The position numbers and the translations under genes were made by a program. Below the pieces are notes generated by a model. The model did not search any database. It was given only the letters and a program-made list of their open reading frames with translations, and was not told the origin of the DNA. This document shows, one piece after another, positions 15,132 to 34,265 of a DNA stretch of 64,000 bases. The DNA is from Reinekea sp. Lineage in GTDB: Bacteria; Pseudomonadota; Gammaproteobacteria; Pseudomonadales; Natronospirillaceae. The stretch is taken from positions 54,305 through 118,304 of the forward strand of contig JARRJP010000013.1 in NCBI GenBank assembly GCA_037389025.1. Direction: 5' to 3'. Positions within the stretch are counted from its first letter, which is position 1. Every line of letters begins with the position of its first letter.

Positions 15132-15285
15132 AACGGATTCAGGTGAAAATGAACTCCCAAAGCTGAATAACCCCTATTGTCATTGCACATGGGCAGGTTC
15201 ATATTCAAAGATCTTACTATTTCTCTCCGTTGCACTCAGTAAATCATCTATACTAGTCATAAAGATCACAATGGGCGGTCGTTCT

Positions 15286-20185: not shown

Positions 20186-20335
20186 TCACTTTACCACGAC
20201 GTTGTTCGCACCAATATACTTGTATTCATCTACTGAAATAATACTGGCGGTCTCTTCTGCATTTAACTGGCCACATAGGAGAAGAACACTCGTCGAAAAT
20301 AACGCTGAAATATTTTTAACCATTCGTTTCTCCAT
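20186..20335 (-). CDS. Hypothetical 49-aa secreted peptide (signal-peptide-like N-terminus)
   Basis: ATG 20335 is 1 nt after the PdxJ-like stop. MEKRMVKNISALFSTSVLLLCGQLNA|EETASIISVDEYKYIGANNVVVK has an n-h-c signal layout with an A-x-A-like site. Confidence 0.4.
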   Translation of the reverse strand: MEKRMVKNISALFSTSVLLLCGQLNAEETASIISVDEYKYIGANNVVVK

Positions 20336-20336
20336 A

Positions 20337-21068
20337 TTAATCACTGCAAATTTCCAAGTACCTTGAAACCACTTGGTCAATGCCATATTCAATACACTCC
20401 ATGGTAAATGCATGACCTATAGAAACTTCAGATATGTCACCTAAATCCAGGAGCGCTCTCAGATTTTCTAGATTTAGATCGTGTCCAGCATTCACGCGAA
20501 CACCGTGCTTATTTGCCAACTGAACACATTGAAGATAACGCTCTTTTGCTTCTACAAAATTCGATTGATTGAACTTTGTGGCCCATTCCTCCGTATATAA
20601 TTCCACTGCACCTATATTGTTCTCAATTATGCTTCCCATTTGAGTGATATTTGCATCGAGGAACACTGCACAGCGAATATCTGAACTAGCAAACGCTTTA
20701 TTCAACATGGAGAGATACTCTCCTTCATTCTGTACATCATATCCATGGTCGGAGGTAAGCTGGTTATCATCATCGGGTACTAATGTACATTGGTGCGGCT
20801 TAACGTCCTTAACTAGTTCAATAAACCTTTCATTTGGATTACCTTCAATATTGAACTCTATTTCCGAGTGTTTTCTCAAAAGGTCTTTTATTTCATACAC
20901 ATCTTCATATCTAATGTGACGTTGATCGGGTCTGGGGTGAACCGTAAACCCCTTAACCCCCAAGCCAATCAACCTTTCTACAAAATAGCCTAAATTAGGG
21001 TAATCGTTACCCCGTGAGTTTCTCAGCAATGCAAGCTTATTCAGATTTACGCTAAATAGAGTGCTCAT
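20337..21068 (-). CDS. pdxJ: PdxJ-family (pyridoxine 5'-phosphate synthase-like) TIM-barrel enzyme, divergent paralogue
   Basis: VNLNKLALLRNSRG, FTVHPRPDQRHI, NIEGN, TLVPD, VNAGHDL and VSIGHAF align along the full length with E. coli PdxJ motifs recalled from memory. Confidence 0.8.
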   Translation of the reverse strand: MSTLFSVNLNKLALLRNSRGNDYPNLGYFVERLIGLGVKGFTVHPRPDQRHIRYEDVYEIKDLLRKHSEIEFNIEGNPNERFIELVKDVKPHQCTLVPDDDNQLTSDHGYDVQNEGEYLSMLNKAFASSDIRCAVFLDANITQMGSIIENNIGAVELYTEEWATKFNQSNFVEAKERYLQCVQLANKHGVRVNAGHDLNLENLRALLDLGDISEVSIGHAFTMECIEYGIDQVVSRYLEICSD

Positions 21069-21076
21069 AGAAATAC

Positions 21077-21865
21077 CTAAATTACGCAGGAAAGTGTTTT
21101 GTTAAATTCAATATTATAAAAATAGAGACCTCCATGCCCGAAAAGCATTACATAATACGAAGGTTCAAAATTGCATATTTTAAAGCGTTTATCTCCTGAC
21201 AAATCGGGATAAAGCTGGTGATTTGTTCCCTTTATAGTTGTATAGGGAACCCCTTGATATTCACCGTGAATATTCTGATGACAGTGACCAAAAAACACAT
21301 GTTTTACAATGTCACTAAAACAAGAAAGTAATTTATAAAATTTGTCGCTATTTTCCAGGCCAATATCATCATAACACTTAACATTGATTTGAAAAGGGTT
21401 GTGGTGCATAAAAAGATATACATCACGTTTGTCTTTGCTAGATTGTTCAAGAACTCTTTTCAACCAATTCATTCGAGAAGAACACAAACTTCCTGACGAC
21501 CGACCGGGGACTGTTGTATCAAGAAATATAAATATCTTGTTGCCATACGCTTTACTGAACTGTACATACCTTCCCTGATAAGTATCTAATTCAATATGAT
21601 TGCTAGCCTGGAGAAAGCTGTCGTGATTTCCTAACAAGGTGTGATATGGAATGGTCAATTCTTGGTTACATTCCGAAAAATATCTATAAGAGATCTCAGA
21701 ACCGTCATTAGATATATCACCCATGCAAAATATCGCCTGCGCATCTGTATGGTGTTCAGCTATATGAGAAACCGCCTTCCTGTAATTAATATCTGAATTA
21801 CAGGAATAGGTTTCAACACTCCTCCCAGTCAAATGGAGGTCCGACAGTAAAATATATTTCTCCAT
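21077..21865 (-). CDS. Calcineurin-like metallophosphoesterase (CpdA/GpdQ-like)
   Basis: Motifs SDLHL, GDISNDG, GNHD, MHH and GHCH in canonical order. Confidence 0.8.
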   Translation of the reverse strand: MEKYILLSDLHLTGRSVETYSCNSDINYRKAVSHIAEHHTDAQAIFCMGDISNDGSEISYRYFSECNQELTIPYHTLLGNHDSFLQASNHIELDTYQGRYVQFSKAYGNKIFIFLDTTVPGRSSGSLCSSRMNWLKRVLEQSSKDKRDVYLFMHHNPFQINVKCYDDIGLENSDKFYKLLSCFSDIVKHVFFGHCHQNIHGEYQGVPYTTIKGTNHQLYPDLSGDKRFKICNFEPSYYVMLFGHGGLYFYNIEFNKTLSCVI

Positions 21866-21879
21866 TTATAGGTTACTGC

Positions 21880-22539
21880 CTACAATCGATTGTCGACATC
21901 ACCAGAATAAACAGTACCTCTATACTGTATTACTATGGAATGGGTATCTACATCATGACGCCAGCCTTTAATATCGTATTTATTTTTTAGGTCTGAAACA
22001 GTGTCATCTATATTAAAAATGGTTTTGCCTGCAATTCTATTTCTGAATTCAGTTTCGCTTTCAATGGGTTTATCGGATATTTCAGATTCATACATTTCGT
22101 ACAGGATTCTAAAGAAACGTACTGTAAGTTTCTCTTTGAATGATTCGGATATACTCTTCTGCCATATTCCAGGCTGGGAATAGAAGACCTGCATTACTGA
22201 GCCGAGATATTTTGAAACGGTTAATGCTTTATAAACTTCAGACTTGTTATCCAACGCGTCACTTGGAGATAATACATAACCTAAATTAAGATATTCCGAT
22301 AAGCAAAGAACTGTCTTTTCAATAACTTCGTGCTGAGCCATTGAAGGAAACCTTGGCCCCAAATGATTTGCTATTTCAAATATGCTCCACTTTCCGTTAA
22401 TCAACTTCCAAGCAGAGTTTGAAAATTCATCTAATCGGCACAAATCCGTCAGCTTAATCAGAAAGATATCTCCGTTAACCACCCTCCTTCTAACCGCATG
22501 ATGTTTCACTAATACATCACCCAAGGCAACCATAGTCAT
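21880..22539 (-). CDS. PqqD-like (RiPP recognition element-type) N-terminal domain protein with an unknown C-terminal domain
   Basis: Residues ~20-90, RLDEFSNSAWKLINGKWSIFEIANHLGPRFPSMAQHEVIEKTVLCLSEYLNLGYV, parallel PqqD [33 protein letters not shown]...VVEFLQ. ATGA overlap with the upstream gene. Confidence 0.55.
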   Translation of the reverse strand: MTMVALGDVLVKHHAVRRRVVNGDIFLIKLTDLCRLDEFSNSAWKLINGKWSIFEIANHLGPRFPSMAQHEVIEKTVLCLSEYLNLGYVLSPSDALDNKSEVYKALTVSKYLGSVMQVFYSQPGIWQKSISESFKEKLTVRFFRILYEMYESEISDKPIESETEFRNRIAGKTIFNIDDTVSDLKNKYDIKGWRHDVDTHSIVIQYRGTVYSGDVDNRL

Positions 22540-23348
22540 ACCGCTTCTCTTCTCAAACAGTAAGCTTTTTCAACCATCTTTTCCGAAAGATGAAGTGCAG
22601 TATTCACATAGTCTCTTTTGTCATATTTGTTTATTGGTAGGTTATGCATGAAAGACCAGTAATCCAAATACACTTCCCTCGCGTCAATATCGCTTTCATA
22701 TATTGCTTCCAAAATTTTAAAACGATGCTTGTTTTTAGGGTTAGTCCACCCTTTGGAGTAAAGCAGCAAATCTATCGAAAATTCCAGGGTTTCCTGGGAT
22801 CGCCGAATCGCACCGGATATATTCCCGCTGTTCAGCATGCCTACAGTGTCATCGAAAGAATCATCTATATAAATACGCTTATTCTCAAAAAGATATCGAT
22901 TGATTTTTACGCGATCAAAACGATCAACAATATCTGCATAGGCATCAGTATTCCTAACAACACGGCAATTAAATATTCTATGTGCGAAATCAATTTCGTT
23001 TTCATCTAGCGCATCCAAAAAGCTATTTTCAGCGTTATCTACCTGTAAGCTATCTATTTTGGACGCGAGCCTATCTATGGACTCGTAGCTCCATATTTCC
23101 ACATCGACTCTTCTACTTTTAAAGTAATGGATTTGGATTTTAAACCTACAGCCATCAGTCACGAATTCTTTAATGGTATTGAGATCTTCGACCACCATAT
23201 ACACGTCAATATCAGAGCTATCATTTCCAATACCCTCCACCAACGAACCGGCTATCCATACTGGAGTACCTTCTGTAACTTGATTTCTAATAAGATCAAG
23301 TATTTCATCGTGGTGGACTCCTCCAATTGATTCATTCATATATTTCAC
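22536..23348 (-). CDS. Pol-beta superfamily nucleotidyltransferase with a helical C-terminal domain (paralogue of 30638-31678)
   Basis: GSLVEGIGNDSSDIDVYMVV (G-S...D-x-D) NTase motif. VDVEIWSYESIDRLASKIDSL is shared with the paralogue. Confidence 0.75.
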   Translation of the reverse strand: MKYMNESIGGVHHDEILDLIRNQVTEGTPVWIAGSLVEGIGNDSSDIDVYMVVEDLNTIKEFVTDGCRFKIQIHYFKSRRVDVEIWSYESIDRLASKIDSLQVDNAENSFLDALDENEIDFAHRIFNCRVVRNTDAYADIVDRFDRVKINRYLFENKRIYIDDSFDDTVGMLNSGNISGAIRRSQETLEFSIDLLLYSKGWTNPKNKHRFKILEAIYESDIDAREVYLDYWSFMHNLPINKYDKRDYVNTALHLSEKMVEKAYCLRREAV

Positions 23349-23351
23349 TCT

Positions 23352-23963
23352 CTACGCTATCAAGGGTTTTATCGCAGTTAGTACCTGATCTTTCGTTGAT
23401 GACAGATCGCCCGAATTATCGATAACCCGATACTTGATTTGAAATTTTCCGAACACATGGAGATAAGATTCACCAAACATCCTCATGAGTTCGATATCTT
23501 CATCGTCACCACAAGACTGCCTGTCTAGATACCGTTTTTCCAAGTTTGATATGCCAGCATCGATATATAAGGTCAGGTCAGGTTGAATAAATTTAGAAAG
23601 CAGGTCCTTTAAAGGTGTAACATCTTCAAAAATATCAATATAGGCGAGATAACAAGGCAGAAATCGGTCAAAGACAACATAATCGTAATTCTCCATGGCC
23701 TTAACATTCTGATCATAGCAACGAATAAAATCCAATAGTATCCCTAACCCTATGTTTTTCCCGAAGGCACTTTCTTTCCAGTCTCGCGAATCGCCGTACT
23801 TTCTTGGAAAGTATTTCTTTACTAAATTTAGGTTTCCATCTTCATATTTTGTACGTCTAAAGAAGAAGACGTTTTTCAGTATATTTGACTCTTCCAACAT
23901 GTTTACTATGGTGGATTTTCCACTTCCGTCTACACCACATATCGCAATCGATTTCATTCCCAA
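23352..23963 (-). CDS. dTMP-kinase-like P-loop kinase, paralogue 1
   Basis: Walker A ICGVDGSGKST. FPRKYGDSRDW and FDRF motifs are shared with 23967-24596 and 26474-27073. Confidence 0.7.
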   Translation of the reverse strand: MGMKSIAICGVDGSGKSTIVNMLEESNILKNVFFFRRTKYEDGNLNLVKKYFPRKYGDSRDWKESAFGKNIGLGILLDFIRCYDQNVKAMENYDYVVFDRFLPCYLAYIDIFEDVTPLKDLLSKFIQPDLTLYIDAGISNLEKRYLDRQSCGDDEDIELMRMFGESYLHVFGKFQIKYRVIDNSGDLSSTKDQVLTAIKPLIA

Positions 23964-23966
23964 AAC

Positions 23967-24596
23967 CTAAAGATAACTGGCAATTATTGATTTAACTTGA
24001 TTTAGCGTCTGCTCAAACGAACCATCATTACTCACGCTTTCCACGTCTAAATCAGAATTCTCGAAGAGATTGACATATGCCGCCAATAATTTCTTCTGGC
24101 ACTCTTTGGTTTCAAATTCATGAATGTCATCGGAACTGCTATCCATACGTTGCCGAATTAGCTCTTCTTTCAGAGTGATAAAAATCACCTTCTCTGGGGC
24201 CGGAACGGAATCTAAAATTTGTAGGGAAATATTGCTTGGCTGCTCATTAATTAGCGTAAAAGCCTTAAAACAAGGCGTATGCCTGTCTGTTACAACGAGC
24301 TTATATTGAGTCGAACTTCCTTCTAATACGGGTCTAATTACCTGATTGTAATAGTTTACATAATCTATCGCACAGCTAATTGCTATAGCCTGATTGAATT
24401 CCCCGCTATACCAATCTTCAATGCCATTTTTTCTAGGAAAGCATTTTTCCACTGTAGATTCTGCTATAGCAGGTCCTCGACCAACAAAATACACCTTCCC
24501 TTTCAACTCGGGTTCAGTTTCAAGTTTTTTAAAAATTGAGGTTTTTCCCACGCCGTCAATACCGCATAGGGAAATAACTGGAATTATTTTTTTCAT
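23967..24596 (-). CDS. dTMP-kinase-like P-loop kinase, paralogue 2
   Basis: Walker A LCGIDGVGKTS, then FPRKNGIEDW and TDRH. Confidence 0.7.
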   Translation of the reverse strand: MKKIIPVISLCGIDGVGKTSIFKKLETEPELKGKVYFVGRGPAIAESTVEKCFPRKNGIEDWYSGEFNQAIAISCAIDYVNYYNQVIRPVLEGSSTQYKLVVTDRHTPCFKAFTLINEQPSNISLQILDSVPAPEKVIFITLKEELIRQRMDSSSDDIHEFETKECQKKLLAAYVNLFENSDLDVESVSNDGSFEQTLNQVKSIIASYL

Positions 24597-25339
24597 TAAC
24601 TAGACACCATTAACTTAGCTGCTTCTTGATAATTAAATAGCCCATCAGACAATTCAACCACTGCGCCATTAAGAGCGTAGTTTGGTGACATTATCTGTTG
24701 GTAAATAGGCTCCACAACATTTTCCACTGCAAGCGGCCTTTCAATAACAAGTTGGCTACATAATTCATTTATGTATTCTTGTCCTTTATCAAATAGACCT
24801 ATACTGAAAACGCAAACACTTCTTCCAGAACCTGAAATCTCCATTGCTGCTGATCGAACAAAATTGCAGAGAGCGGTCGCGGTAGCGTTGTATAAACCGT
24901 TATATTTTACCGCCCCTTTTTCTCCCGCCAGACCAGTAATATTGATAAACTGCCAATTCTTCTTATGCTTTTTTAAATAACTAAAATAGCTGGCCATTGC
25001 TTCCACGGGAGCACGAAACCCCACCCGGGTGACGTTTTCTATTTCTTCTTGTGATATTTCATATACTGAAGAGTGGTTCCACATTCCACAACAGTAAAGC
25101 ACGGTGATATTTTCGTAATTATCTACTTCATCACGAATGACATCGCCTGCAACTACACTTTTGGCAGCTAAATCCATTGAGATTAATTTGATAACGAATT
25201 CTTCTTTGTTGAGACTATCTATATATTGGTTTTTATTTCTATAAACACCAATAATATTCACTTTTCCGCTCTCACCTAGTCTCTTAGAAATACTAAAACC
25301 GAGAAAAGAAGATATGCCATAGATAACAACCAGATTCAC
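24596..25339 (-). CDS. Short-chain dehydrogenase/reductase-like Rossmann protein
   Basis: VVIYGISSFLGFSISKRL glycine-rich dinucleotide motif. I prefer GTG 25339, just after the GT stop at 25341. The ORF-track ATG 25381 would overlap the GT gene by 41 nt. Confidence 0.55.
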   Translation of the reverse strand: MNLVVIYGISSFLGFSISKRLGESGKVNIIGVYRNKNQYIDSLNKEEFVIKLISMDLAAKSVVAGDVIRDEVDNYENITVLYCCGMWNHSSVYEISQEEIENVTRVGFRAPVEAMASYFSYLKKHKKNWQFINITGLAGEKGAVKYNGLYNATATALCNFVRSAAMEISGSGRSVCVFSIGLFDKGQEYINELCSQLVIERPLAVENVVEPIYQQIMSPNYALNGAVVELSDGLFNYQEAAKLMVSS

Positions 25340-25340
25340 T

Positions 25341-26471
25341 CTACATACACTCCAGTATTTTACGAATGGAATTCTCAGCATTTTCGAAACCGAGGTTCGG
25401 CTTTAGTTCTGTTTCTTCGGGATCAAGTTTACTTGCGCTTGTTATACACAAATCTAAGTCTTCGATAAACGAACAAAAATATGCATTTTCTGTTGACTCA
25501 GCAAATTCGGAGGCAATCAAGAATTGCTCGTCGTGTCCAGAGAGAGCCCATACGACCTTTCCTCCGGCTATATTTTTCACATCAGAAAGAAAACCAACAC
25601 CAGCACGAGATACAACCAATTTGGCCTCAGATAGGTATCTGTAGTACTCGAGAGATATTGAATCCACTACGAGCCGATCAATACCTGAAATCTTCTGTAA
25701 GGAGTTGTTTAACTCTTCCCCGAGGCATGAAAATACCTTTACGTGGCTACGTTTATCAAAACAGTTAAGTGCACTCTCTATAGCCTTGTGGGTATAGTCA
25801 TACGTTTCCGAAATCCATTGAGCGGCATCTACTTCCTCTGAACTATATGAAGCGGTATTTGAGGGGAACTCAACGCCGCCACCGTTCGCAATAACAACAA
25901 TATTGTCTTCGGTCTGAGCACCACAACTAGGTAGAGTATAAAAACCATGGCTCACAATCTTGCTAGAAATATTACTATTACTAATTAACGTTTTTTTCTC
26001 CGGCAGTTTATCCAAGGGTAGAAGGTAGTCACTCTCTCCTAGTAGACTCACCAGATAAGTAGAAGGCCCTTTATTTTTTGGCGTATCAATAAGTATTTCA
26101 GGGTTGAATAAGCCTACAGCTTTACAGCTGGTTCCCTTAGTAAGCGGCCCCATTAAATACTCACCACCAAAAAAACAAAGGTCTGCATTAATACTCTCTA
26201 TTAGCGGAAGTATATTTCGTACACCGTGATCGTAGGGGCATAAGCCCGGCCAATCCAAATACTCCTTACGCACATCCAGCTGATGCAGCTTGTATTCAAT
26301 ATCAATAGGGCCACGACCGGAAAGGAATTCATAACCGTTTGAATAGCTTGCGATATGCACTTCAAGCCCTTGATCATAAGCTGCTTTCGCCAGCGCTAAA
26401 CCCGGTATAACATGGCCCAACCCTGGCCGCCCCCTCAATACAAACAGAGCTACCTTCTTATTTAAATTCAT
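25341..26471 (-). CDS. GT-B fold glycosyltransferase (MurG/GT1/GT28-like)
   Basis: N-terminal GRPGLGHVIPGLALAKA and C-terminal VVSRAGVGFLSD...GHDEQFLIASEF resemble MurG/UGT-type donor-binding motifs. Confidence 0.65.
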   Translation of the reverse strand: MNLNKKVALFVLRGRPGLGHVIPGLALAKAAYDQGLEVHIASYSNGYEFLSGRGPIDIEYKLHQLDVRKEYLDWPGLCPYDHGVRNILPLIESINADLCFFGGEYLMGPLTKGTSCKAVGLFNPEILIDTPKNKGPSTYLVSLLGESDYLLPLDKLPEKKTLISNSNISSKIVSHGFYTLPSCGAQTEDNIVVIANGGGVEFPSNTASYSSEEVDAAQWISETYDYTHKAIESALNCFDKRSHVKVFSCLGEELNNSLQKISGIDRLVVDSISLEYYRYLSEAKLVVSRAGVGFLSDVKNIAGGKVVWALSGHDEQFLIASEFAESTENAYFCSFIEDLDLCITSASKLDPEETELKPNLGFENAENSIRKILECM

Positions 26472-26473
26472 GG

Positions 26474-27073
26474 TTATAGCGCTTCCAGAATATGTTCTAC
26501 AATTTCTGAGACGGAGTGCTCCAGCTCTTGAGTATTGTCTACCGTCACTACATCGGACATGTCAGAAAATAGACCATCATAGCTATCAGAAAGCTTTCGT
26601 ATTACATCTGGCGTTTCATCGTTACTCGGCCCTCCTCTAAGATGTTGCCTTTCTATAGCAACTTCGGGAGGTACTTTTATGTAAAAGGTTTTGTCCGGCG
26701 TCCTTACATTGTCAAACATCGAGAAATAGTCTTTATCTGTATTCACAGCTGACATGTACGACGTGTAACAATAACTATACCTATCACATATAACGATGGT
26801 ATTCTCCTTCATTAGAGGCTGAATGTATTTGTCATAGTGAGATATAAAATCCATACCCGTAGCAATAGAGACTAGCTGCGCAAATTTACCCCCACTCCAG
26901 TCCTGATCTCCACCCCAAAAATCGCAAATAAGGTTTACGTTGGTTTTAATATCCTTTTTCAGAGCAGTAGAATAATGCCCAATCTCCTGCAGGCGTTTGG
27001 ATACCAAATCTACCAAAGTAGATTTACCACAACCATCTACGCCACATAACACAAATAATTTTGATGAACTCAT
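26474..27073 (-). CDS. dTMP-kinase-like P-loop kinase, paralogue 3
   Basis: Walker A LCGVDGCGKST, then GGDQDW and CDRY. Confidence 0.7.
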   Translation of the reverse strand: MSSSKLFVLCGVDGCGKSTLVDLVSKRLQEIGHYSTALKKDIKTNVNLICDFWGGDQDWSGGKFAQLVSIATGMDFISHYDKYIQPLMKENTIVICDRYSYCYTSYMSAVNTDKDYFSMFDNVRTPDKTFYIKVPPEVAIERQHLRGGPSNDETPDVIRKLSDSYDGLFSDMSDVVTVDNTQELEHSVSEIVEHILEAL

Positions 27074-27085: not shown

Positions 27086-27757
27086 CTATACAACGCGATA
27101 ACTTTCTAAAAGAGTCAATAGGTTATCGATATCTGACCGAGTAACTTCTCTGGTATTTTTTAAACTCTCAGGAGTTCTTTCCTTTGAGCCATAGCGCCAC
27201 CAGGTTTCTTTTGTTCCAAAATCGTAATGGATCGCTCTCTGTTTCTGAGCCGGTGAGCGCAACATTAAGGATATACACTTATCCTCTCCTACCGCTCTCA
27301 AGTTGTGGATAACAGAGTGGTCAATAAAGTAAGGGATATTCTTTACTTCATTTTTTATGTACACAGGTTTAATTTGGTCTGCGTCATGTAGAATCGAGCC
27401 GTCATCCATTGGGCTATACAAAGTATGTTTGTAGCCACCGTGCAGTATCAGACTTGTAAAGTTCATTCTGTGGCTGTGTGGAATATCACTGGAATGTGGA
27501 TACATCACATGCATACGCAGTCTCACGCCAGTTTCTTTGTCACTGAAGAGAACATATTTTTCGATATTATAGTCTTTCTCGCAGCGTCCAAATTTTTCTT
27601 CATCTTCATAGAGATCAGTTACCAATGATTTAAGTAGCTCCTTATCTTCACTCAAGTTCATCAGCGCATTTTTTGTGACGACTTCCACCGACTCGGTATC
27701 TTTCCAATCTAACGCCAAGACCGGCCCCAAGATGTCGTTTAGCTTTTCAATATTCAT
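27086..27757 (-). CDS. Hypothetical protein, possible cupin-fold metalloenzyme
   Basis: MHVMYPHSSDIPHSHRMNFTSLILHGGY...VIHNL is a His-rich beta-strand pattern reminiscent of cupin or cysteine-dioxygenase-like proteins. The assignment is weak. Confidence 0.35.
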   Translation of the reverse strand: MNIEKLNDILGPVLALDWKDTESVEVVTKNALMNLSEDKELLKSLVTDLYEDEEKFGRCEKDYNIEKYVLFSDKETGVRLRMHVMYPHSSDIPHSHRMNFTSLILHGGYKHTLYSPMDDGSILHDADQIKPVYIKNEVKNIPYFIDHSVIHNLRAVGEDKCISLMLRSPAQKQRAIHYDFGTKETWWRYGSKERTPESLKNTREVTRSDIDNLLTLLESYRVV

Positions 27758-27759
27758 AT

Positions 27760-28362
27760 CTATACCTTCCTAATGATAGCTTTTAACCATTTATCTTCCT
27801 TCCGGTGCGCTCGAGTGTCGATGGAAACCCAAAGTTCAACAATTTGAACACCAGGAATGTCATTTATAAACTGTTTGAACCTTTCCTCATTCATGTGAAC
27901 AAACAATCGGCCACTTTTTTCACTTATTTTGTCTTCGCTTCCATATTTATAAGAAGCGTAAAACACTCCGTCATTCTCCAAGTATGAAATAAGCTGTTTG
28001 TAAACAGATGCAAGATCTGCATAAGGAACATGCAACAGAGAGGCGCTCGCCCATATACCATCAAACTTTTGATTTCCGGGGTCATATGTATCAAACCTTT
28101 TATGCTTTACATCTACACCTGTTCGCTCTCTAGCTATGGAACACATCTCGAACGATGCATCAAAAGCATCGACGTCAAAACCTTTGGAAAGAAAAAAGTC
28201 GATGTCTCTCCCCGGCCCGCATCCTGCTTCTAAAATGGCACCACTATTTGCAATATATTTAGTGAACCTTTCCCGAGCATCGTCTACATTTTCTTCCAAA
28301 CTTCTCGATGTGAACTTGTTTGCATTCTCGTCGTAGTACTTAATTGTGTGCTCAACTAACAT
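27760..28362 (-). CDS. Class I SAM-dependent methyltransferase
   Basis: Motif I ILEAGCGPGRD, with post-I acidic residue FDVDAFDAS. 200 aa. Confidence 0.8.
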   Translation of the reverse strand: MLVEHTIKYYDENANKFTSRSLEENVDDARERFTKYIANSGAILEAGCGPGRDIDFFLSKGFDVDAFDASFEMCSIARERTGVDVKHKRFDTYDPGNQKFDGIWASASLLHVPYADLASVYKQLISYLENDGVFYASYKYGSEDKISEKSGRLFVHMNEERFKQFINDIPGVQIVELWVSIDTRAHRKEDKWLKAIIRKV

Positions 28363-28376: not shown

Positions 28377-29642
28377 CTAATATTTAAAAAATGGGGAATC
28401 GGCCTCTGCAAAAGGTATTAGCTCATCAAACCAGCTTGCGCTACCCGAATATTTTGATTTAAAAGGTATCTTCACTCTTGTCGAATCCCTATGCTGAATA
28501 AACTGCATTAGAAAATTCCCATTCTCGCCTGGCTCATAGTGGAGGATTTCAACCTTCCCATACTTTGTGCTCATTACCGGCCCACGAACGGTACGAGCCA
28601 GTCCGCTTGTCACCCGAATAGATTTATGAAAGATATTATATGCTTCCCAAAGCGGGACAGAGAAACAATTATTCGCTCCGGTGTCTCGTTCAACGAACAT
28701 ATAGTATGGAACAATCCCTCGATGTACCTGCGCTCTCCATAAGTTCGCCCAATTATCAGGGTTGTCATTTATGCCCTTTAATAAAGGCCCTTGGCTTCTT
28801 ATTACCGCTCCGGTGGACTGAATTGCGGCAATAGCTCTATCGGATATCTCGGTACTCATTTCTTTGGGGTGATTGTAGTGCGCCATAAAAGCCAAATGCT
28901 TACCCGAAATGGTCACCTTCCTAAACAGATTTAGAAGATCATCAGAATCAGAGTCTGTTACAAATCTTTGCGGCCAGAATGTAAGGGCTTTAGACCCGAT
29001 TCGAATATTTTCCACATGTAAAAAGTCTTTACCCAATAACGGCTCAATCATCTTTCTCAAATTACTGGTTTTCATAACCATGGGGTCACCACCGGTAATC
29101 AAGATGTCCGTTATATTTCGGTTAGCTCTTACATACTCCAGCAAGTCGGTAATTTCCTTCGACTCCATCCTCAACGGTTTATCACCAATAAATTGGGCCC
29201 ACCGAAAACAGAAAGTACAGTAGCTATGGCAAACCTGACCCGATGAAGGAAAGTAAAGAACGGTTCTTTCATATTTATGTTGCAAACCAGAAACCGGTAT
29301 TCCCCCCACTTCTGGTATATTCATTTTTAGCTGATCACCAGGGTGAGGGTTCAGCTCAGAACGTATTTCTTCTACTATTGGTCTAATGGACTCTCTTCCT
29401 AACGCTAACCCTTTCTTGATTTTCTCGTACTGCTCATTTGTGAGCATGCTTTTATTTGGAATAGTTAACCTGTATATAGGGTCATCTCTATAATTATCCC
29501 AATCAATCAATGAGTCGCAGACATACTCGTTAACACGAAAGGGCAGCACTTCAGAAACCACCTTTATTTCTTCCAGTGCTCTTTTTCCAATTTTCTTTGC
29601 TGAGTGTTCTGATGTTGTTATTATATTGCTACTTATAGACAT
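28377..29642 (-). CDS. KamA-family radical SAM enzyme (lysine 2,3-aminomutase-like)
   Basis: CHSYCTFCFRW CxxxCxxC cluster, ILITGGDPMVM, and a length and layout typical of KamA/EpmB/AblA-type PLP-dependent aminomutases. Confidence 0.8.
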   Translation of the reverse strand: MSISSNIITTSEHSAKKIGKRALEEIKVVSEVLPFRVNEYVCDSLIDWDNYRDDPIYRLTIPNKSMLTNEQYEKIKKGLALGRESIRPIVEEIRSELNPHPGDQLKMNIPEVGGIPVSGLQHKYERTVLYFPSSGQVCHSYCTFCFRWAQFIGDKPLRMESKEITDLLEYVRANRNITDILITGGDPMVMKTSNLRKMIEPLLGKDFLHVENIRIGSKALTFWPQRFVTDSDSDDLLNLFRKVTISGKHLAFMAHYNHPKEMSTEISDRAIAAIQSTGAVIRSQGPLLKGINDNPDNWANLWRAQVHRGIVPYYMFVERDTGANNCFSVPLWEAYNIFHKSIRVTSGLARTVRGPVMSTKYGKVEILHYEPGENGNFLMQFIQHRDSTRVKIPFKSKYSGSASWFDELIPFAEADSPFFKY

Positions 29643-29663: not shown

Positions 29664-30650
29664 TCAAACAAGTTCATTTAGGGCTTGCTCGCACTGACGA
29701 TAATTGAATCTCGCATATTGTTTGTCTGCGCCAAAGGTTTCGCCACCTACCACCTTAAATTCTATGCCTTGGATACCTAACTTGCCGTTTTGGATTCTTT
29801 CGCCAGCTTTAAGCCACATATATTGAACAAGCAATCCAGTAACTTCATAACCCTCACCTGCAATTAGCCCGCTCACCGTGTCGAGTACTTTTTTAGATTT
29901 TTCCTTCTCGGCTTTGGCCCATTTGGAGAAATTATTCATATTCTCTGCCGCTGTAACTTGAGCAACTGAAGATACGGGGTTAAGAAATCTGCATTTAATC
30001 TCTACTAAGTTATCTATCAGAGACTTACAGGCATTTATAAACCCAACTCTTAACCCAGGCATTCCGGCCCATTTTGAAAGTGAATCAACAACTGCAACAT
30101 GGGTATCATCCACCTGCGCGGAAAACCGTTCACAGTCTCCAAAGGAATAATGAGCAAGACACTCATCAATTATCAACATACACCCGTTTTCTTTCGTCAC
30201 CGCTACTATTTTTTTCATCTCAGCACAGGAAAAGAAAAAACCTGTTGGGTTATGAGGGTTATTTACTATTAGTACCGAACATCGCTTAGAAGCGTCTTCT
30301 ATAGAACGAATGCTGGTATAAGAATACCGCTTAATATCGTAATCAAGGCCTCCAAATATCTTTGCGAACCCCGGCCAGGCGATATCTGATATAGCTACGC
30401 TTTTTTCTTTTCGTTGAAAAAATAGGGCAAGCAGCATCAGACCTTCTTTTACTCCGCTGGTGACCAACACATTATCAGTAGTTATATGGTTCGCATATTG
30501 GCTCTCAACGTAACGCGCTCTTAACTCATGCAACCCAAATTCGCAGGTGTAGTCTGCCACCGTAGAAATTTTAACTTGCGTCTTCATGAGCGCATCTGAA
30601 TATAAACCACCTCCAGCGTCCGCCAACACTGCTTTTTTCACGAGATCCAC
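29664..30650 (-). CDS. Class I/II PLP-dependent aminotransferase or decarboxylase (HisC/CobD-sized)
   Basis: VNNPHNPTG and DSLSKWAGMPGLRVGF (PLP lysine). 328 aa. Confidence 0.8.
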   Translation of the reverse strand: MDLVKKAVLADAGGGLYSDALMKTQVKISTVADYTCEFGLHELRARYVESQYANHITTDNVLVTSGVKEGLMLLALFFQRKEKSVAISDIAWPGFAKIFGGLDYDIKRYSYTSIRSIEDASKRCSVLIVNNPHNPTGFFFSCAEMKKIVAVTKENGCMLIIDECLAHYSFGDCERFSAQVDDTHVAVVDSLSKWAGMPGLRVGFINACKSLIDNLVEIKCRFLNPVSSVAQVTAAENMNNFSKWAKAEKEKSKKVLDTVSGLIAGEGYEVTGLLVQYMWLKAGERIQNGKLGIQGIEFKVVGGETFGADKQYARFNYRQCEQALNELV

Positions 30651-31678
30651 AGCCGAGTTGGTTCAGTTCCCTCAACATACACCTTGCTTCGATAGGTATA
30701 TTCCATATACTCATAGCTCTCCACATCAATATTCTTTAAATCATACCGGTTAGCTAATAACTCAATAGATTTGATATTATTTGGTGTAACGCTATATTTA
30801 TCTAGAATACTGATGGATAAATTATAAATTTGGTCACAAAAATCCAGACAATCTAGAACATACCTTTCTTTGTCTGAACTCTTCTCCATTTGATAACCAA
30901 TAAAATATATTAGCTTGAAGAAGTCACCGGAGAGCGAAGAGATATCCTGTTTTTTACTTTCTTGTAAATATGTATACATCCATTTTGGATCTACATTAGT
31001 ACAGCCATTTATATGCAAATACGCTTGCACTTGTCTCTTTAAGTTAATTTGAGATATTTCAACAGCACGATCGCGTTCCCCCTTTGATATAGCGCCAAAG
31101 ATGTCCAACAATATTGAAAAATCTGATGCCAACCAACGATAGGCAAGATAGCAGTACTTTTCTTTGGAGAATTGCGCCTGAATCTCTTTAAGCTTTCTTT
31201 CGTTTTTAATAGGAAGTGCTTCAAATATCCTATGTATAATGCTGTTTTCTCTATATTCTAGATACTTTGACAGCATTTCCAAATTACTAGTAGCGTACTC
31301 AAATAGACTCTCAACTTTATTGGCTACTTCCGCTATCGACCGGTAGCTTTTAAATTCAACATCAACTTTAATATTGGTTTCAGGTATTACCGTGTGAACC
31401 AAAAATACTTCTTCGTTCTCCACTTCCGAGATGTTGGTTGAGGTAACTATGGTTCTATTAACAGTTAACACTCTGTGGTGTTTTTCAAAATCGATTTCTT
31501 TTGCTTTAGGTAAGTTTTCTCTAAACACATAGATGTCTAGATCAGAGAATTTGTTACCTATACCTTCAATCAAGCTACTTGTGGCAATTATCAGGTCATC
31601 ATCACCAGCATAAGCATTATCCAGAATAAACTGAACTGGAACATTTACTTTACCATCTAATATTTTTATTGATTTCAT
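30638..31678 (-). CDS. Pol-beta superfamily nucleotidyltransferase with a helical C-terminal domain (paralogue of 22536-23348)
   Basis: SSLIEGIGNKFSDLDIYVF NTase motif, then VDVEFKSYRSIAEVANKVESL. 13-nt overlap with the downstream gene. Confidence 0.75.
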   Translation of the reverse strand: MKSIKILDGKVNVPVQFILDNAYAGDDDLIIATSSLIEGIGNKFSDLDIYVFRENLPKAKEIDFEKHHRVLTVNRTIVTSTNISEVENEEVFLVHTVIPETNIKVDVEFKSYRSIAEVANKVESLFEYATSNLEMLSKYLEYRENSIIHRIFEALPIKNERKLKEIQAQFSKEKYCYLAYRWLASDFSILLDIFGAISKGERDRAVEISQINLKRQVQAYLHINGCTNVDPKWMYTYLQESKKQDISSLSGDFFKLIYFIGYQMEKSSDKERYVLDCLDFCDQIYNLSISILDKYSVTPNNIKSIELLANRYDLKNIDVESYEYMEYTYRSKVYVEGTEPTRLWIS

Positions 31679-31693
31679 CTTTAGTACACATTT

Positions 31694-33058
31694 TTACACT
31701 ATGGTAGGTATTCTGGCTTCGGGTTTATACAATAGATTTTCAGCAGTCTTAATCGTCTTAACAATTCTCTCTGCCATAATGTTGAGTTCTTCTATGGTGC
31801 ATATGTAAGGTGGAGCAATTAATATGTGGTCACTCGTACCTTTCCCACTAAATCCCTCGCAGGCATAGAGTAGAATCTCGTTTTCCATTCCGATATTCTT
31901 AATAACATCAGGCATATTTATATTTTTCGAAAATGGTGTCTTATCAGACTTATTTGATACAAACTCAATAGATTGAAGAAATCCACGCCCCCTTATATCT
32001 CCCACTATCCCGCAAGAATTTAACTCCTCTTTCAATATCGAAGTTAGATACGCGCCGTTATTTTTTACCCTGCTTACCAAATCATTTTCTAGCACGTATT
32101 TCTGAGCAGCATAGCCAGCAGCACAAGACACGTTATGACCAACGTATGTACCAGCATGAATAAAACCAGATTTCATTTGTTCTATGCACACCGCAACTCG
32201 TTGACTACACAGCGTGGCCGCTAACGGCTGATACCCAGAGGCAATCGTTTTACCAACCGCAACAATGTCTGGCTGGATATTCTCAGCCTCGAATGCATAA
32301 TAATGTCCAGTTCTACCCAGGCCACACATAACCTCATCGAGAACCAATAGGATGTTGTATTTCTTGCATACTTTCGCGGTTTTCTCAAAGTAATCCTTTT
32401 CTGCCGTTACAGCTCCAGAAGTCGATCCGCCTACGGTTTCTATCAGGAAGCAGGAGATTTTCTCTGCACCAAGACGTTCTATCTCTTTTTCTAAGCTATT
32501 AATACAGTAGTCTATGTATTCGGTAGTGGTTTCAAAGGTGTCAACATTTCGATATGAGTTGCAAATTTTTATATTTTCGGAATGCCCGCTTTTTTTATCG
32601 CAAAAATATTTCTTTCTACTAAGCTGGCCACCTACTTCTAATGTTTTCAGAGAACCACCGTGATAGCTTAACTCTCGACACAGAACGATTTCTTTCTTGC
32701 CAAATCCGTTAAGTTTCCAATACTGGGCGGCCATTTTAATGGCCACTTCGATTGCCTCAGTACCTGATGGAGAAAAAACTACTCGAGAAAGCCTTCCCTT
32801 GGACTGTGTTACCAACAAGTCTGCTAGCTTTTCAGAAGCTTCCGAAGTAAAAGTTCCGGTGTGCGAAAATGGAACTTCTTTCAGCTGATTTATTGTCGCT
32901 TCGATAACAGCTTCATTGCTATAACCTAGAGATGCCACAGCTCCTGAGCAGCTATCCAAAAACCGACGGCCAGAACGATCGTTAACATATATACCACTAC
33001 TAGCAGCACAGAGGATTTTTTCAAAAGAACCCCTTTTAAGAATACTCGAGCCCATCAC
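31694..33058 (-). CDS. Class III PLP-dependent aminotransferase
   Basis: LVLDEVMCGLGRTGHYYAFE, DIVAVGKTIASG (PLP lysine) and SYHGGS. 454 aa. Confidence 0.85.
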   Translation of the reverse strand: MMGSSILKRGSFEKILCAASSGIYVNDRSGRRFLDSCSGAVASLGYSNEAVIEATINQLKEVPFSHTGTFTSEASEKLADLLVTQSKGRLSRVVFSPSGTEAIEVAIKMAAQYWKLNGFGKKEIVLCRELSYHGGSLKTLEVGGQLSRKKYFCDKKSGHSENIKICNSYRNVDTFETTTEYIDYCINSLEKEIERLGAEKISCFLIETVGGSTSGAVTAEKDYFEKTAKVCKKYNILLVLDEVMCGLGRTGHYYAFEAENIQPDIVAVGKTIASGYQPLAATLCSQRVAVCIEQMKSGFIHAGTYVGHNVSCAAGYAAQKYVLENDLVSRVKNNGAYLTSILKEELNSCGIVGDIRGRGFLQSIEFVSNKSDKTPFSKNINMPDVIKNIGMENEILLYACEGFSGKGTSDHILIAPPYICTIEELNIMAERIVKTIKTAENLLYKPEARIPTIV

Positions 33059-33875: not shown

Positions 33876-34265
33876 TTACTCTATATTTTCAGCTTCACCT
33901 GGGTATTGGCCAAGCTCTCGTAGTTTTACGTAGTGAGGGATATCTTTAGTCGCGCGCTCAAACTCAGTATGACTAACACCAGGCATAGACAAACTTTTGG
34001 TGACACGCCCAGGAAATCTTCGCTTGTAATCTTCACGAAAGGCTTCCCAATCTGACAGTTCATTTACGGAGAAAACTCCCATCCAATCCCACTCGCCTGC
34101 CATGTTCATTGTGTGTGACCCGATGGTTTGCTTAACTTTCGGATACCAATCCTTAAAGAAGTTGTTAATTGCTTCTTGGCTCTTTGCTTCTTCTTCGGGC
34201 GTTTGTGCATAAAAAGCATCGTTATGTTTTACTAAATGAAAAATGAGGTACTTATAAGGCGCCAT
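33876..34265 (-). CDS. Hypothetical 129-aa protein, possibly a dimeric alpha+beta barrel (darcynin/Dabb-like) fold
   Basis: YLIFHLVKHND...WDWMGVFSVNELSDWEAFREDYKRRFPGR. This is only a pattern resemblance. Confidence 0.3.
   Translation of the reverse strand: MAPYKYLIFHLVKHNDAFYAQTPEEEAKSQEAINNFFKDWYPKVKQTIGSHTMNMAGEWDWMGVFSVNELSDWEAFREDYKRRFPGRVTKSLSMPGVSHTEFERATKDIPHYVKLRELGQYPGEAENIE

What the first reader, a model, noticed from the sequence alone, without database searches (positions are those of the whole stretch)
20337..21068. Divergent PdxJ paralogue with an altered N-terminal active-site motif closes the enzyme block
The protein aligns with PdxJ over its full length (HPRPDQRH, NIEGN, LVPD, NAGHDL, IGHAF). 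The canonical N-terminal VN(I/V)DH(I/V)ATLRNARG instead reads VNLNKLALLRNSRG, so the D-H pair is N-K. The comparison is from my memory of E. coli PdxJ. PdxJ condenses an amino-ketone phosphate with DXP into a pyridine ring. Together with RibB-like, three aminotransferases, a methyltransferase and kinases, this raises the possibility of a substituted pyridine or B6-like cofactor or antimetabolite made from non-canonical substrates.
Basis: partly seen in the sequence, partly recalled or inferred. Interest (0 to 1): 0.65.

Follow-up and report, generated by a model that had tools for sequence, protein, structure and literature searches.

The report
Ordinary-type PdxJ inside a biosynthetic island
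The gene encodes an intact vitamin-B6 ring-forming enzyme (PdxJ) whose "odd" N-K motif is normal for a large PdxJ clade; what is unusual is that it is the last gene of a foreign, uncharacterised biosynthetic gene island whose relatives in other bacteria usually carry a PdxJ too.

Summary
The ORF (20337-21068, minus strand, 243 aa) is real and is a full-length PdxJ. Evidence: Pfam E = 3.7e-67; it passes the NCBIfam equivalog NF003626; its model has TM 0.92 to PDB 6W6A. But N-K is not an alteration. All 120 close homologues have it, as do 132 of 145 aligned 50%-identity representatives, the S. maltophilia crystal structure, and at least 597 genomic loci across many phyla in unrelated, non-biosynthetic neighbourhoods. 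The window protein matches its clade at 40 of 40 strongly conserved columns, so nothing suggests a changed active site. The context claim holds up better. PdxJ is the terminal gene of a low-GC (39% against 48-49%) mobile island in a Reinekea-like host. The island family has a conserved core: RibB, a class-III aminotransferase, a GT-B glycosyltransferase, an SDR, a kinase and a ~130-aa protein. An in-cluster PdxJ occurs in 6 of 8 informative variants, at three different positions and from two PdxJ sub-branches. My best reading is a standard PNP-synthase-type enzyme recruited to supply a pyridine intermediate. Cofactor supply and self-resistance remain live rivals. Whether the host has a second pdxJ could not be tested.

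The parts
20337..21068 (-). PdxJ (pyridoxine 5'-phosphate synthase), N-K clade, 243 aa; terminal gene of the island
   Evidence: PF03740 E=3.7e-67. NF003626 282.6 bits against a cutoff of 222. PDB 6W6A E=2e-45. AF2 model pLDDT 92.9, TM 0.92 to 6W6A. GC 0.396.
20194..20336 (.). Island edge: similarity of the ~93-94% identical island copies in four other runs starts at exactly 20194. The stretch also holds a possible small ORF with a signal-peptide-like start just after PdxJ.
   Evidence: Contig pieces and loose ends at 20194 in X3, X4, X8 and X11; sequence read.
21077..21865 (-). Metallophosphoesterase (CpdA/SpdA-like), 8 bp upstream of PdxJ; the pairing is conserved in L005 and L096
   Evidence: PF00149; NF050112 and NF008359, both below cutoff; contexts.
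21880..22539 (-). 219-aa protein of unknown function; recurs in the cluster family
   Evidence: No Pfam or NCBIfam match; homologues in L089, L096, L097, L090 and L100.
22536..23348 (-). Pol-beta-type nucleotidyltransferase-like protein
   Evidence: Weak NTP_transf_2 / MTPAP-like hits; homologues in the variants.
23352..24596 (-). Two tandem thymidylate-kinase-like P-loop kinases (23352-23963 and 23967-24596)
   Evidence: PF02223, and TIGR00041 below cutoff.
24596..25339 (-). Short-chain dehydrogenase/reductase (core gene of the family)
   Evidence: PF00106; gene call of 247 aa in L001; present in all variants.
25341..26471 (-). GT-B glycosyltransferase-like protein (GT28/MurG-like), used here as the family marker
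   Evidence: 41 homologues, many with PF04101. A profile built from them hits MurG (7D1I, E=2.9e-9) and YjiC/OleD.
26474..27073 (-). Third thymidylate-kinase-like kinase (core)
   Evidence: PF02223 E=5.5e-18.
27086..28362 (-). 223-aa unknown protein (27086-27757) and a SAM methyltransferase (27760-28362)
28377..29642 (-). KamA-family radical-SAM aminomutase-like gene. The window lacks 63 nt (21 codons) near its 5' end relative to an independent contig.
   Evidence: TIGR00238 at 133.9 bits, below cutoff; L004 comparison; X4 joint at 29600/29602.
29664..33058 (-). Class I/II aminotransferase or decarboxylase-like gene (29664-30650), 346-aa unknown NTase-like gene (30638-31678), class-III aminotransferase (31694-33058)
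33070..33870 (-). Peptidase C26 / PuuD-like gamma-glutamyl hydrolase
   Evidence: PF07722 E=1.8e-55; NF008471 below cutoff.
33876..34265 (-). 129-aa protein of unknown function, the most conserved core component of the cluster family
   Evidence: 93% identical to the S. salsuginis copy and 59-64% in distant variants. Low-confidence ferredoxin-like beta-alpha-beta-beta-alpha-beta model.
34284..35424 (-). RibB-adjacent class-III (BioA-like) aminotransferase, a core gene. It appears frameshifted in the window because 113 nt are missing at 34523/34524.
   Evidence: tblastn finds two frames. The X1 contig carries 113 extra nt at that point and X2 contigs break there.
35424..36056 (-). [quoted passage not shown]
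   Evidence: PF00926 E=2e-55; TIGR00506 at 162.9 bits against a cutoff of 177.45; PDB RibBA 4FFJ E=7.5e-40.
36897..37319 (-). AraC-family regulator (HTH part only)
   Evidence: PF12833 and PF00165; a full-length 270-aa AraC occupies the same position in S. salsuginis.
37868..38164 (-). IS3-type transposase remnant (integrase-core C-terminus) between the island and host genes
   Evidence: rve_2 E=2.1e-14. Nearby pieces (36529-36880, 38258-38317) have high depth in X3, suggesting multicopy sequence.

Best explanation
Shown: the gene encodes a structurally and catalytically intact pyridoxine-5'-phosphate synthase of the 'N-K' clade (NCBIfam NF003626). This is the ordinary PdxJ type of Bacteroidota, Xanthomonadales/Lysobacterales, Psychrobacter, many other Gammaproteobacteria, cyanobacteria and planctomycetes. 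Asn10-Lys11 in place of E. coli Asp11-His12 is that clade's normal state. It co-varies with HPRPDxRH, NIEG, LVPD, TSDHG, NAGHDL and SIGHA. The residues I recall as catalytic in E. coli PdxJ (Asn9, Arg20, His45, Arg47, His52, Glu72, Thr102, Glu153, His193, Gly215-His216) are all kept.

Shown: the gene is not a stray housekeeping gene. It is the last, almost translationally coupled gene of a ~17-kb, low-GC, horizontally acquired operon in a Reinekea-like host, and it moves with that island.

Inferred: the enzyme carries out PdxJ-type chemistry (a Schiff base between a 2-keto sugar phosphate and an alpha-aminoketone phosphate, phosphate elimination, ring closure to a 3-hydroxypyridine) in the service of the island's pathway. 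It supplies PNP, or a close analogue, as an intermediate. The analogue could be 6-methyl-PNP, formed if the aminoketone is 3-amino-2-oxobutyl phosphate made from DHBP by the in-cluster RibB, BioA-like aminotransferase and SDR, in parallel to SerC/PdxA in the normal route. The neighbouring metallophosphoesterase, the GT-B glycosyltransferase and the tailoring enzymes would then process that intermediate. Where a cluster lacks its own PdxJ (S. salsuginis, a Tepidisphaeraceae MAG), the housekeeping enzyme would do the job.
For: Identity as PdxJ.

N-K is a clade signature: 120/120 close homologues and 132/145 representatives; 77 of 80 named genomic loci; PDB 6W6A from S. maltophilia.

That clade sits in ordinary, non-biosynthetic contexts: none of the 80 genomic loci has another cluster gene. 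Neighbours are ThrRS, MsrA, a conserved CBS-protein/alpha-beta-hydrolase arrangement, and ampD/nadD/rsfS.

No deviation from the clade: 40/40 columns conserved at 90% or more, and a single L-to-I change at the 80% level.

Foreign island: GC 0.39 against 0.48-0.49. The host's GlyS is 81% identical to Reinekea, while the PdxJ is nearest Psychrobacter at 63%. An IS3 remnant is present. The island edge at 20194 has different flanks in four other runs.

Pathway linkage: Mphos-PdxJ is conserved in L005 (79%) and L096 (54%). RibB-AT3-GT-PdxJ occurs in L090. AT3 followed by a GT::PdxJ fusion occurs in L088. C26-PdxJ-AT occurs in L100/L101. The in-cluster PdxJs come from two different N-K sub-branches.

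Partners: RibB is a credible DHBP synthase. The adjacent aminotransferase is BioA-like. The GT is of the GT-B class related to MurG, YjiC and OleD.
Against: Two otherwise complete cluster variants have no PdxJ (L089 S. salsuginis, L099), so an in-cluster copy is dispensable. The window enzyme shows no substitution that would indicate a non-canonical substrate. The GT::PdxJ fusion rests on one Logan contig, and its linker contains the original PdxJ start codon, so it could be a read-through or a sequencing error. No PdxA, PdxH or Dxs is in the cluster. No product is known. I found no literature precedent for a pathway-dedicated PdxJ. The proposed 6-methyl-PNP chemistry is inference only.
Confidence: 0.42

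Rival explanations
1. Cofactor supply. The in-cluster PdxJ is a plain extra PNP synthase that raises PLP supply for the cluster's many PLP-dependent enzymes (two class-III aminotransferases, one class I/II enzyme and a KamA-type aminomutase).
For: There are three or four PLP-dependent enzymes per cluster. PdxJ is reported as the slow, rate-limiting step of the DXP-dependent route (kcat 0.07 per second; PMC10471632). The window enzyme cannot be told apart from housekeeping PdxJ at conserved sites. The copy is dispensable in L089 and L099.
Against: It does not explain the tight GT-PdxJ adjacency or fusion, or retention at three positions across hosts of 39-70% GC. No other PLP-pathway gene (pdxA, pdxH) is ever co-recruited in the loci seen. 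The literature search for PdxJ homologues in biosynthetic gene clusters found no characterised case of any role.
Confidence: 0.2
2. Self-resistance by target duplication. The island makes an antimetabolite derived from DHBP (an amino sugar phosphate resembling DXP or the aminoketone substrate) that inhibits PdxJ or B6 synthesis. The in-cluster PdxJ is an insensitive or simply additional copy of the target.
For: A duplicated vitamin-pathway enzyme inside a cluster is a recognised resistance signature; one example is lumazine synthase in the flavophos cluster, whose product mimics DHBP (PMC12871164). All in-cluster copies are N-K type. Export genes are adjacent in some variants: an RND pump in L005, MMPL in L099, a Na/H exchanger in L100.
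Against: The window PdxJ has no distinguishing substitution relative to housekeeping clade members, and it is 63% identical to Psychrobacter's ordinary PdxJ. A resistance protein placed directly after, or fused to, a biosynthetic glycosyltransferase would be unusual. Two clusters lack it.
Confidence: 0.18
3. Sole housekeeping copy. The host lost, or never had, another pdxJ, and this gene is simply its PNP synthase that happens to lie at the island's edge.
For: The gene is intact and of ordinary type. The rest of the host genome could not be inspected.
Against: Its GC matches the island, not the host. It is 8 bp from the preceding cluster gene. It travels with the island into different flanks. 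It is paired with the same metallophosphoesterase in other organisms. Its nearest relatives are Moraxellaceae, not Saccharospirillaceae. The island is rare: the GT protein has no relative among 185,579 species representatives. The lineage must therefore have had another B6 source before acquiring it.
Confidence: 0.05

Closest known systems
N-K-clade pyridoxine 5'-phosphate synthase (NCBIfam NF003626 / PRK05265.1-4; PDB 6W6A, Stenotrophomonas maltophilia K279a; Psychrobacter PdxJ)
   Same: Full-length homology (45% identity to 6W6A in the HMMER alignment; 60-63% to Psychrobacter). Same N-K, HPRPDxRH, NIEG, LVPD, TSDHG, NAGHDL and SIGHA signatures. TM 0.92 and rmsd 1.9 Å to 6W6A. Matches 40/40 clade-conserved columns.
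   Different: Genomic setting: the known members sampled are stand-alone genes in unrelated, non-biosynthetic neighbourhoods. This one is the last gene of a mobile biosynthetic operon.
E. coli-type (D-H) PdxJ (PDB 1HO1, 1M5W; TIGR00559)
   Same: Same TIM-barrel fold (TM 0.89). Same length. Conserved Asn9, Arg20, His45, Arg47, His52, Glu72, Thr102, Glu153, His193 and Gly215-His216 equivalents.
   Different: About 28% identity. Asp11-His12 becomes Asn-Lys, Gly194 becomes Asp, HLREDRRH becomes HPRPDQRH, and the active-site loop differs (LVPEKRQEVTTEGG against LVPDDDNQLTSDHG). It scores just below the TIGR00559 cutoff (188.2 against 192.75).
In-cluster PdxJ of the high-GC variants of the same cluster family (L090, L088 fusion, L100/L101)
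   Same: N-K motif. Embedded in a RibB / AT-III / GT / SDR / kinase / ~130-aa-protein cluster.
   Different: Only ~35% identical to the window PdxJ. A separate deep sub-branch with VP[VT]xPGExT[ST]xRG, H[AG]GHDL and HPR[EA]DERH. Placed next to the GT or mid-cluster rather than at the end.
In-cluster copies of vitamin-pathway enzymes (e.g. lumazine synthase in the flavophos cluster, PMC12871164)
   Same: A primary-metabolism vitamin enzyme that handles a small keto-sugar phosphate through Schiff-base and phosphate-elimination chemistry sits inside a specialised-metabolite cluster. DHBP is involved.
   Different: In the flavophos case the copy is shown to confer resistance and the product is a phosphonate. 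Here no product or phenotype is known, and there is no phosphonate machinery (no PepM-like gene).

Membership tests
PdxJ / pyridoxine 5'-phosphate synthase (PF03740) | Full-length match to the family profile above the curated threshold | tested here: met
   PF03740: 226.3 bits against a cutoff of 24.5, residues 5-240 of 243. NF003626: 282.6 against a cutoff of 222.
PdxJ / pyridoxine 5'-phosphate synthase (PF03740) | (beta/alpha)8 barrel superposable on solved PdxJ structures | tested here: met
   AF2 model pLDDT 92.9. The top 16 PDB hits are all PdxJ; 6W6A has TM 0.92 and 1HO1 has TM 0.89.
PdxJ / pyridoxine 5'-phosphate synthase (PF03740) | Catalytic and phosphate-binding residues of E. coli PdxJ (Asn9, Arg20, His45, Arg47, His52, Glu72, Thr102/103, Glu153, His193, Gly215-His216). 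The residue list is from my memory of the E. coli structural papers. | tested here: met
   Equivalents are N8, R19, H44, R46, H51, E75, T105/S106, E156, H196 and G218-H219, from the HMMER alignment to 1M5W. All are invariant in the clade.
PdxJ / pyridoxine 5'-phosphate synthase (PF03740) | Asp11-His12 pair of the E. coli-type enzyme | tested here: not met
   It is N10-K11 here. The pair is not family-defining, however: N-K is the norm in a whole clade that includes PDB 6W6A. An E. coli redesign study that excluded conserved residues nevertheless mutated D11 and H12 (PMC10471632).
PdxJ / pyridoxine 5'-phosphate synthase (PF03740) | Enzymatic formation of PNP from DXP and 3-amino-2-oxopropyl phosphate; complementation of a pdxJ mutant | not testable with these tools
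   Needs an enzyme assay or complementation. I found no published assay of any N-K-clade enzyme.
N-K clade of PdxJ (NCBIfam NF003626) | Signature set: SVN(L/I/V)NK, HPRPDxRH, NIEG, LVPD, T-S-(D/N)-x-G, NAGHDL, SIGHA | tested here: met
   All are present. The window residue is the majority or a common state at every signature position, and it matches 40/40 columns conserved at 90% or more.
Component of a biosynthetic gene cluster | Same strand and tight spacing with cluster genes; same composition as the cluster; co-inherited with it; recurs in homologous clusters | tested here: met
   8-bp gap. GC 0.396 against 0.391 for the island. The island edge at 20194 lies beyond PdxJ. PdxJ is present in 6 of 8 informative variants and absent in 2.
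Self-resistance copy of an antibiotic target | A second, diverged copy beside a sensitive housekeeping copy, with substitutions at ligand-contacting positions | tested here: inconclusive
   No substitution at clade-conserved positions.
Paralogue (second pdxJ in the same genome) | Another pdxJ elsewhere in the host genome | not testable with these tools
   Only the window and ±10 kb of contig JARRJN010000012.1 were accessible. No other PdxJ is in the window (ORF and family scans covered only part of it).

The most novel reading that the evidence does not exclude
The island family encodes an alternative, RibB-fed branch into PdxJ chemistry. DHBP is transaminated by the BioA-like aminotransferase and oxidised by the SDR to 3-amino-2-oxobutyl phosphate. 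PdxJ condenses this with DXP into a 6-methyl-pyridoxine-5'-phosphate-type ring. The ring is then dephosphorylated, glycosylated by the GT-B enzyme and further tailored into a secreted vitamin-B6 analogue or antimetabolite. This would be the first natural-product pathway built on PdxJ.
Probability: 0.2. Interest if true: 0.8.

Novelty: new variant of a known kind. Interest (0 to 1): 0.5.

Why it matters
That is worth knowing, because E. coli-centred residue lists (Asp11/His12) do not transfer to a large share of bacterial PdxJs.

The interesting part is the context. A rare, uncharacterised cluster family is spread from marine Gammaproteobacteria to a planctomycete (Tepidisphaeraceae) MAG and unidentified high-GC hosts. 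It repeatedly carries a PNP synthase together with a DHBP synthase, a BioA-like aminotransferase, a GT-B glycosyltransferase, P-loop kinases and a highly conserved ~130-aa protein of unknown function.

If PdxJ builds part of the product, this would be the first specialised-metabolite pathway based on B6 ring-forming chemistry, possibly yielding a B6 antimetabolite. If PdxJ is a resistance copy, it points to a natural inhibitor of B6 biosynthesis.

Either way, a cultured strain (Saccharospirillum salsuginis) carries the cluster, so the question can be addressed experimentally.

Tried and rejected
1. Scanning species-representative genomes for the cluster with the 376-aa GT protein found nothing; the cluster is rare.
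2. The metagenome scan with the GT-family alignment returned only five short loci, of little use.
3. Identifying the host from exact-sequence clusters gave no named relatives. GlyS homologues later placed it near Reinekea.
4. Finding the host's own pdxJ was not possible: the genome scans and word-index searches were exhausted, and no reference DNA close enough for read-laying was available.
5. P0265 (610 aa) looked like a second GT::PdxJ fusion, but its N-terminus is low-complexity junk from a mis-called ORF. I rejected it.
6. Taxonomic placement of the high-GC variants failed.
7. Probing plasmids with the conserved ~130-aa protein found no match.
8. No RNA runs cover the PdxJ end of the island.
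The single-sequence model is low confidence (pLDDT 60), so I ran no fold search on it.
10. Literature searches found nothing on the roles of Asp11/His12 in open papers, nothing on 6W6A, nothing on PdxJ in Reinekea, and no PdxJ with a dedicated cluster role.
11. I first took the apparent frameshift of the RibB-adjacent aminotransferase as a sign of cluster decay. I rejected that: independent contigs carry 113 extra nt that restore the gene.
12. No flanking direct repeats or att-like sites were found at the island ends.
Full report
**1. The observation**

It matches Pfam PdxJ over its whole length (E = 3.7e-67). An AlphaFold model (pLDDT 92.9) superposes on solved PdxJ structures, with TM 0.92 to 6W6A and 0.89 to 1HO1. 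The sequence-level observation is correct.

**2. The N-K pair is a clade hallmark, not an alteration**

- Among six NCBIfam PdxJ equivalog models, the protein passes exactly one, NF003626 (282.6 bits, cutoff 222). It falls just under the general TIGR00559 model.
- The best PDB match, 6W6A (PNP synthase of Stenotrophomonas maltophilia K279a), reads SVNVNKIAVLRNSRGG and shares HPRPDRRH, NIEGNP, LVPD, NAGHDL and SIGHA.
- All 120 closest database homologues have N-K. Most of these are the annotated PdxJ of Psychrobacter species at 60-63% identity.
- In a search of 1.84 billion 50%-identity representatives, 132 of the 145 best hits that align over the site have N-K.
- A scan of species-representative genomes found at least 597 loci with this PdxJ type. 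They lie in Bacteroidota, Chlorobiota, cyanobacteria, Planctomycetota, Burkholderiales, Lysobacterales, Halieaceae, SAR86, Legionella, Marinicella and others, and include complete isolate genomes. Of the 80 loci kept, 77 have N-K.
- None of these 80 loci has any other gene of the window's cluster nearby.
- The neighbours I sampled are unrelated to biosynthesis: ThrRS, MsrA, a conserved CBS-protein/alpha-beta-hydrolase arrangement in Flavobacteriia, and pta/nadD/rsfS/ampD in Psychrobacter.
- The window protein agrees with the clade consensus at 40 of 40 columns conserved at 90% or more. At the 80% level it departs only by a Leu-to-Ile change at position 226.
- The equivalents of the E. coli catalytic and phosphate-binding residues are all present (residue list from my memory of the structural literature; alignment).
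- An E. coli PdxJ redesign study that excluded conserved residues nevertheless selected D11 and H12, within about 6 Å of the imine intermediate, for mutation (PMC10471632).

I conclude that the enzyme is a normal N-K-type PNP synthase and that its sequence gives no sign of changed specificity.

**3. The gene's setting**

The window has a 20-38 kb block of GC 0.36-0.42 with a strong minus-strand skew. The flanks have GC 0.48-0.49. The block is a single co-directional operon with, in order of transcription:
- an AraC-type regulator;
- RibB (DHBP synthase);
- a BioA-like class-III aminotransferase;
- a 129-aa unknown protein;
- a PuuD-like C26 hydrolase;
- a second class-III aminotransferase;
- a 346-aa unknown protein;
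- a class I/II aminotransferase or decarboxylase-like enzyme;
- a KamA-type radical-SAM aminomutase-like enzyme;
- a methyltransferase;
- a 223-aa unknown protein;
- a thymidylate-kinase-like kinase;
- a GT-B glycosyltransferase-like protein;
- an SDR;
- two more kinases;
- a nucleotidyltransferase-like protein;
- a 219-aa unknown protein;
- a metallophosphoesterase;
- and, 8 bp later, PdxJ.

Apart from PdxJ, no protein reaches a curated equivalog cutoff, so the pathway is uncharacterised.

The flanks carry gammaproteobacterial core genes (glyS, trkAH, rsmB, dprA, bioF). GlyS is 81% identical to Reinekea blandensis and 66-68% to Saccharospirillum. The host is therefore a Reinekea-like member of the Saccharospirillaceae. 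The PdxJ, in contrast, is nearest Moraxellaceae.

An IS3-type transposase remnant lies between the AraC end and the host threonine-aldolase gene. Four further sequencing runs contain a ~93-94% identical island. In each, similarity to the window begins at exactly 20194, about 140 bp beyond the PdxJ stop, and the sequence before that point is different. PdxJ is thus the terminal gene inside a mobile unit.

**4. Is PdxJ functionally tied to the cluster?**

I used the cluster-specific GT-like protein as a handle. It has only 41 homologues in 5.8 billion proteins, and no relative in 185,579 species representatives by the pattern scan. Contexts were as follows.

| Locus | GT identity to window | Arrangement | In-cluster PdxJ? 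|
|---|---|---|---|
| L005 | not available (PdxJ 79%) | unk219 - Mphos - PdxJ, then an RND pump | yes, at the end |
| L096 | 51% | long cluster ending Mphos - PdxJ (54% to window), then IS3 genes | yes, at the end |
| L089 (S. salsuginis isolate) | 66% | same gene order from AraC to Mphos; also lacks KamA | no |
| L097 (Sedimenticola MAG) | 46% | long cluster; contig ends right after Mphos | unknown |
| L090 (GC 69%) | 41% | RibB - AT3 - GT - PdxJ - ~130-aa protein - KamA-like - ... | yes, 35 bp after the GT |
| L088 (GC 70%) | 41% | RibB - AT3 - GT::PdxJ single ORF of 643 aa - ~130-aa protein | yes, fused to the GT |
| L100/L101 (GC 56%) | 44% | AT3 - ~130-aa protein - DegT - C26 - PdxJ - AT - KamA-like - ... 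- GT - SDR - kinases - Mphos | yes, mid-cluster |
| L099 (Tepidisphaeraceae MAG) | 36% | rSAM - RibB - AT3 - GT - SDR - kinase - ~130-aa protein | no |
| L098 | 38% | truncated at the contig start | unknown |

Counting the window itself, an in-cluster PdxJ is present in 6 of 8 informative variants, at three different positions.

In an NJ tree, the PdxJs of the marine long-form clusters (window, L005, L096) group with the Psychrobacter PdxJ. Those of L090, L088 and L100 form a separate deep N-K sub-branch with its own loop signature. This points to repeated recruitment, or replacement, of PdxJ within the family.

The conserved core of the family is RibB, the BioA-like aminotransferase, the GT, the SDR, a kinase and the ~130-aa protein. 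That last protein is the most conserved of all: 93% identical to the S. salsuginis copy and 59-64% in the most distant variants.

**5. Mechanism**

- **Shown:** an intact PNP-synthase-type enzyme, carried and co-inherited with the island, and recurrently associated with the same core enzymes.
- **Inferred (best reading, about 0.4):** the pathway uses PdxJ chemistry to make a pyridine intermediate.
- **Supporting partner evidence:** RibB is a credible DHBP synthase (E = 7.5e-40 to RibBA). The adjacent aminotransferase is BioA-like, a type that aminates ketones lacking an alpha-carboxylate.
- **Proposed chemistry:** an SDR oxidation of the resulting amino alcohol phosphate would give 3-amino-2-oxobutyl phosphate, the methyl homologue of PdxJ's natural aminoketone substrate. 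This formally parallels SerC/PdxA in the normal route. Condensation with DXP would give a 6-methyl-PNP-type ring. Alternatively PdxJ makes ordinary PNP for the pathway.
- **Downstream steps:** the neighbouring metallophosphoesterase could remove the 5'-phosphate. The GT-B enzyme, remotely related to MurG and to small-molecule glycosyltransferases such as YjiC and OleD, could glycosylate the ring.
- **When the in-cluster copy is absent:** the housekeeping PdxJ would substitute, which fits the window enzyme being indistinguishable from housekeeping enzymes.

Rivals:
- **PLP supply** for the three or four PLP-dependent enzymes of the cluster. PdxJ is reported as rate-limiting.
- **Self-resistance** to a DHBP-derived antimetabolite, by analogy with lumazine synthase in the flavophos cluster.
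- **Sole housekeeping copy**, which is unlikely given the composition, the mobility and the rarity of the island.

**6. Comparison with the known, and novelty**

As a protein, this is a new member of a known clade. It is a PdxJ by every feature I could test. The one E. coli feature it lacks (Asp11-His12) is not family-defining. Open-literature searches found no PdxJ with a dedicated role in a biosynthetic cluster. The recurrent embedding of PdxJ in this RibB-based cluster family therefore appears to be undescribed, and I rate the whole as a new variant of a known kind.

**7. Limits**

- The host's remaining genome could not be searched, so 'paralogue' is an inference.
- The GT::PdxJ fusion rests on a single contig, and its linker contains the original PdxJ start codon.
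- I could not test whether the high-GC PdxJ sub-branch is exclusive to these clusters.
- No expression data exist.
- The window assembly has two small deletions relative to independent contigs of the same population: 113 nt at 34523/34524 and 63 nt near 29600. Gene models in this window should be read with that in mind.

Noticed in passing
window 34523/34524 (within 34284-35424, minus strand): The RibB-adjacent class-III aminotransferase looks frameshifted in the window. An independent Logan contig of the same population (depth 32) has 113 extra nt exactly here, and contigs from a second run break at the same point. It is an assembly gap or a minor variant, not a pseudogene.
   Followed up: yes
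window ~29600 (KamA-like gene 28377-29642, minus strand): The window lacks 63 nt (21 in-frame codons, IDEIARFRVYGKNNFHKTEFA) near the 5' end of the KamA-like gene compared with L004. The homologues in L096 and L097 are also 442 aa, against 421 aa here.
   Followed up: yes
window 33876-34265 (minus strand); homologues in L088, L089, L090, L097, L098, L099 and L100: A 129-aa protein with no Pfam or NCBIfam match is the most conserved protein of the whole cluster family: 93% identical to the S. salsuginis copy, 59-64% in the most distant variants, and about 50 invariant residues, including several His and Trp. The single-sequence model suggests a ferredoxin-like beta-alpha-beta-beta-alpha-beta fold at low confidence.
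   Followed up: partly
L088 1689-3620 (protein P0417): A single 643-aa ORF joins the GT-like protein (residues 6-359) to a PdxJ domain (395-632). The linker still contains the PdxJ start (MTYLSVNLNK), so it is either a genuine read-through fusion or an error in one Logan contig.
   Followed up: partly
L089 (Saccharospirillum salsuginis, GCA_014651855.1, contig BMXR01000006.1, 156653-177783): A cultured, named isolate carries the same cluster in the same gene order (proteins 49-93% identical) but without PdxJ and without the KamA-like gene. It is a natural comparison strain for experiments.
   Followed up: partly
window 37868-38164 (minus strand); also 36529-36880 and 38258-38317: An IS3-family transposase remnant (rve_2, E = 2e-14) lies at the AraC end of the island. 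Short pieces in this intergenic zone have high depth (52-93x) in another run, which suggests multicopy repeat elements.
   Followed up: partly
window 20186-20334 (minus strand): Immediately after the PdxJ stop, and still inside the island, there is a small ORF (about 45-49 aa) with a signal-peptide-like start (MVKNISALFSTSVLLLCGQLNA/EE). Gene callers predicted a 66-aa version in L002 and L004. Its reality and function are unknown.
   Followed up: no
window 15061-18912 (plus strand): The host genes next to the island form an H-NOX (HNOB) - hybrid histidine kinase - response regulator module, preceded by an acetoacetyl-CoA synthetase. This looks like a nitric-oxide-sensing signalling unit and seems unrelated to the island.
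   Followed up: no
window 19659-19674 / 19852-19867: A perfect 16-nt inverted repeat (CAGCCCTTTCAAGGTG / CACCTTGAAAGGGCTG) with arms 177 nt apart lies in the gap between the host thioesterase gene and the island edge. Its meaning is unknown.
   Followed up: no
L098 12034-13286; L099 13302-17471: Distant variants of the cluster sit next to other secondary-metabolism genes: a lanthipeptide dehydratase in L098; a carrier protein, acyl-CoA dehydrogenases and an AMP-binding enzyme in L099.
   Followed up: no
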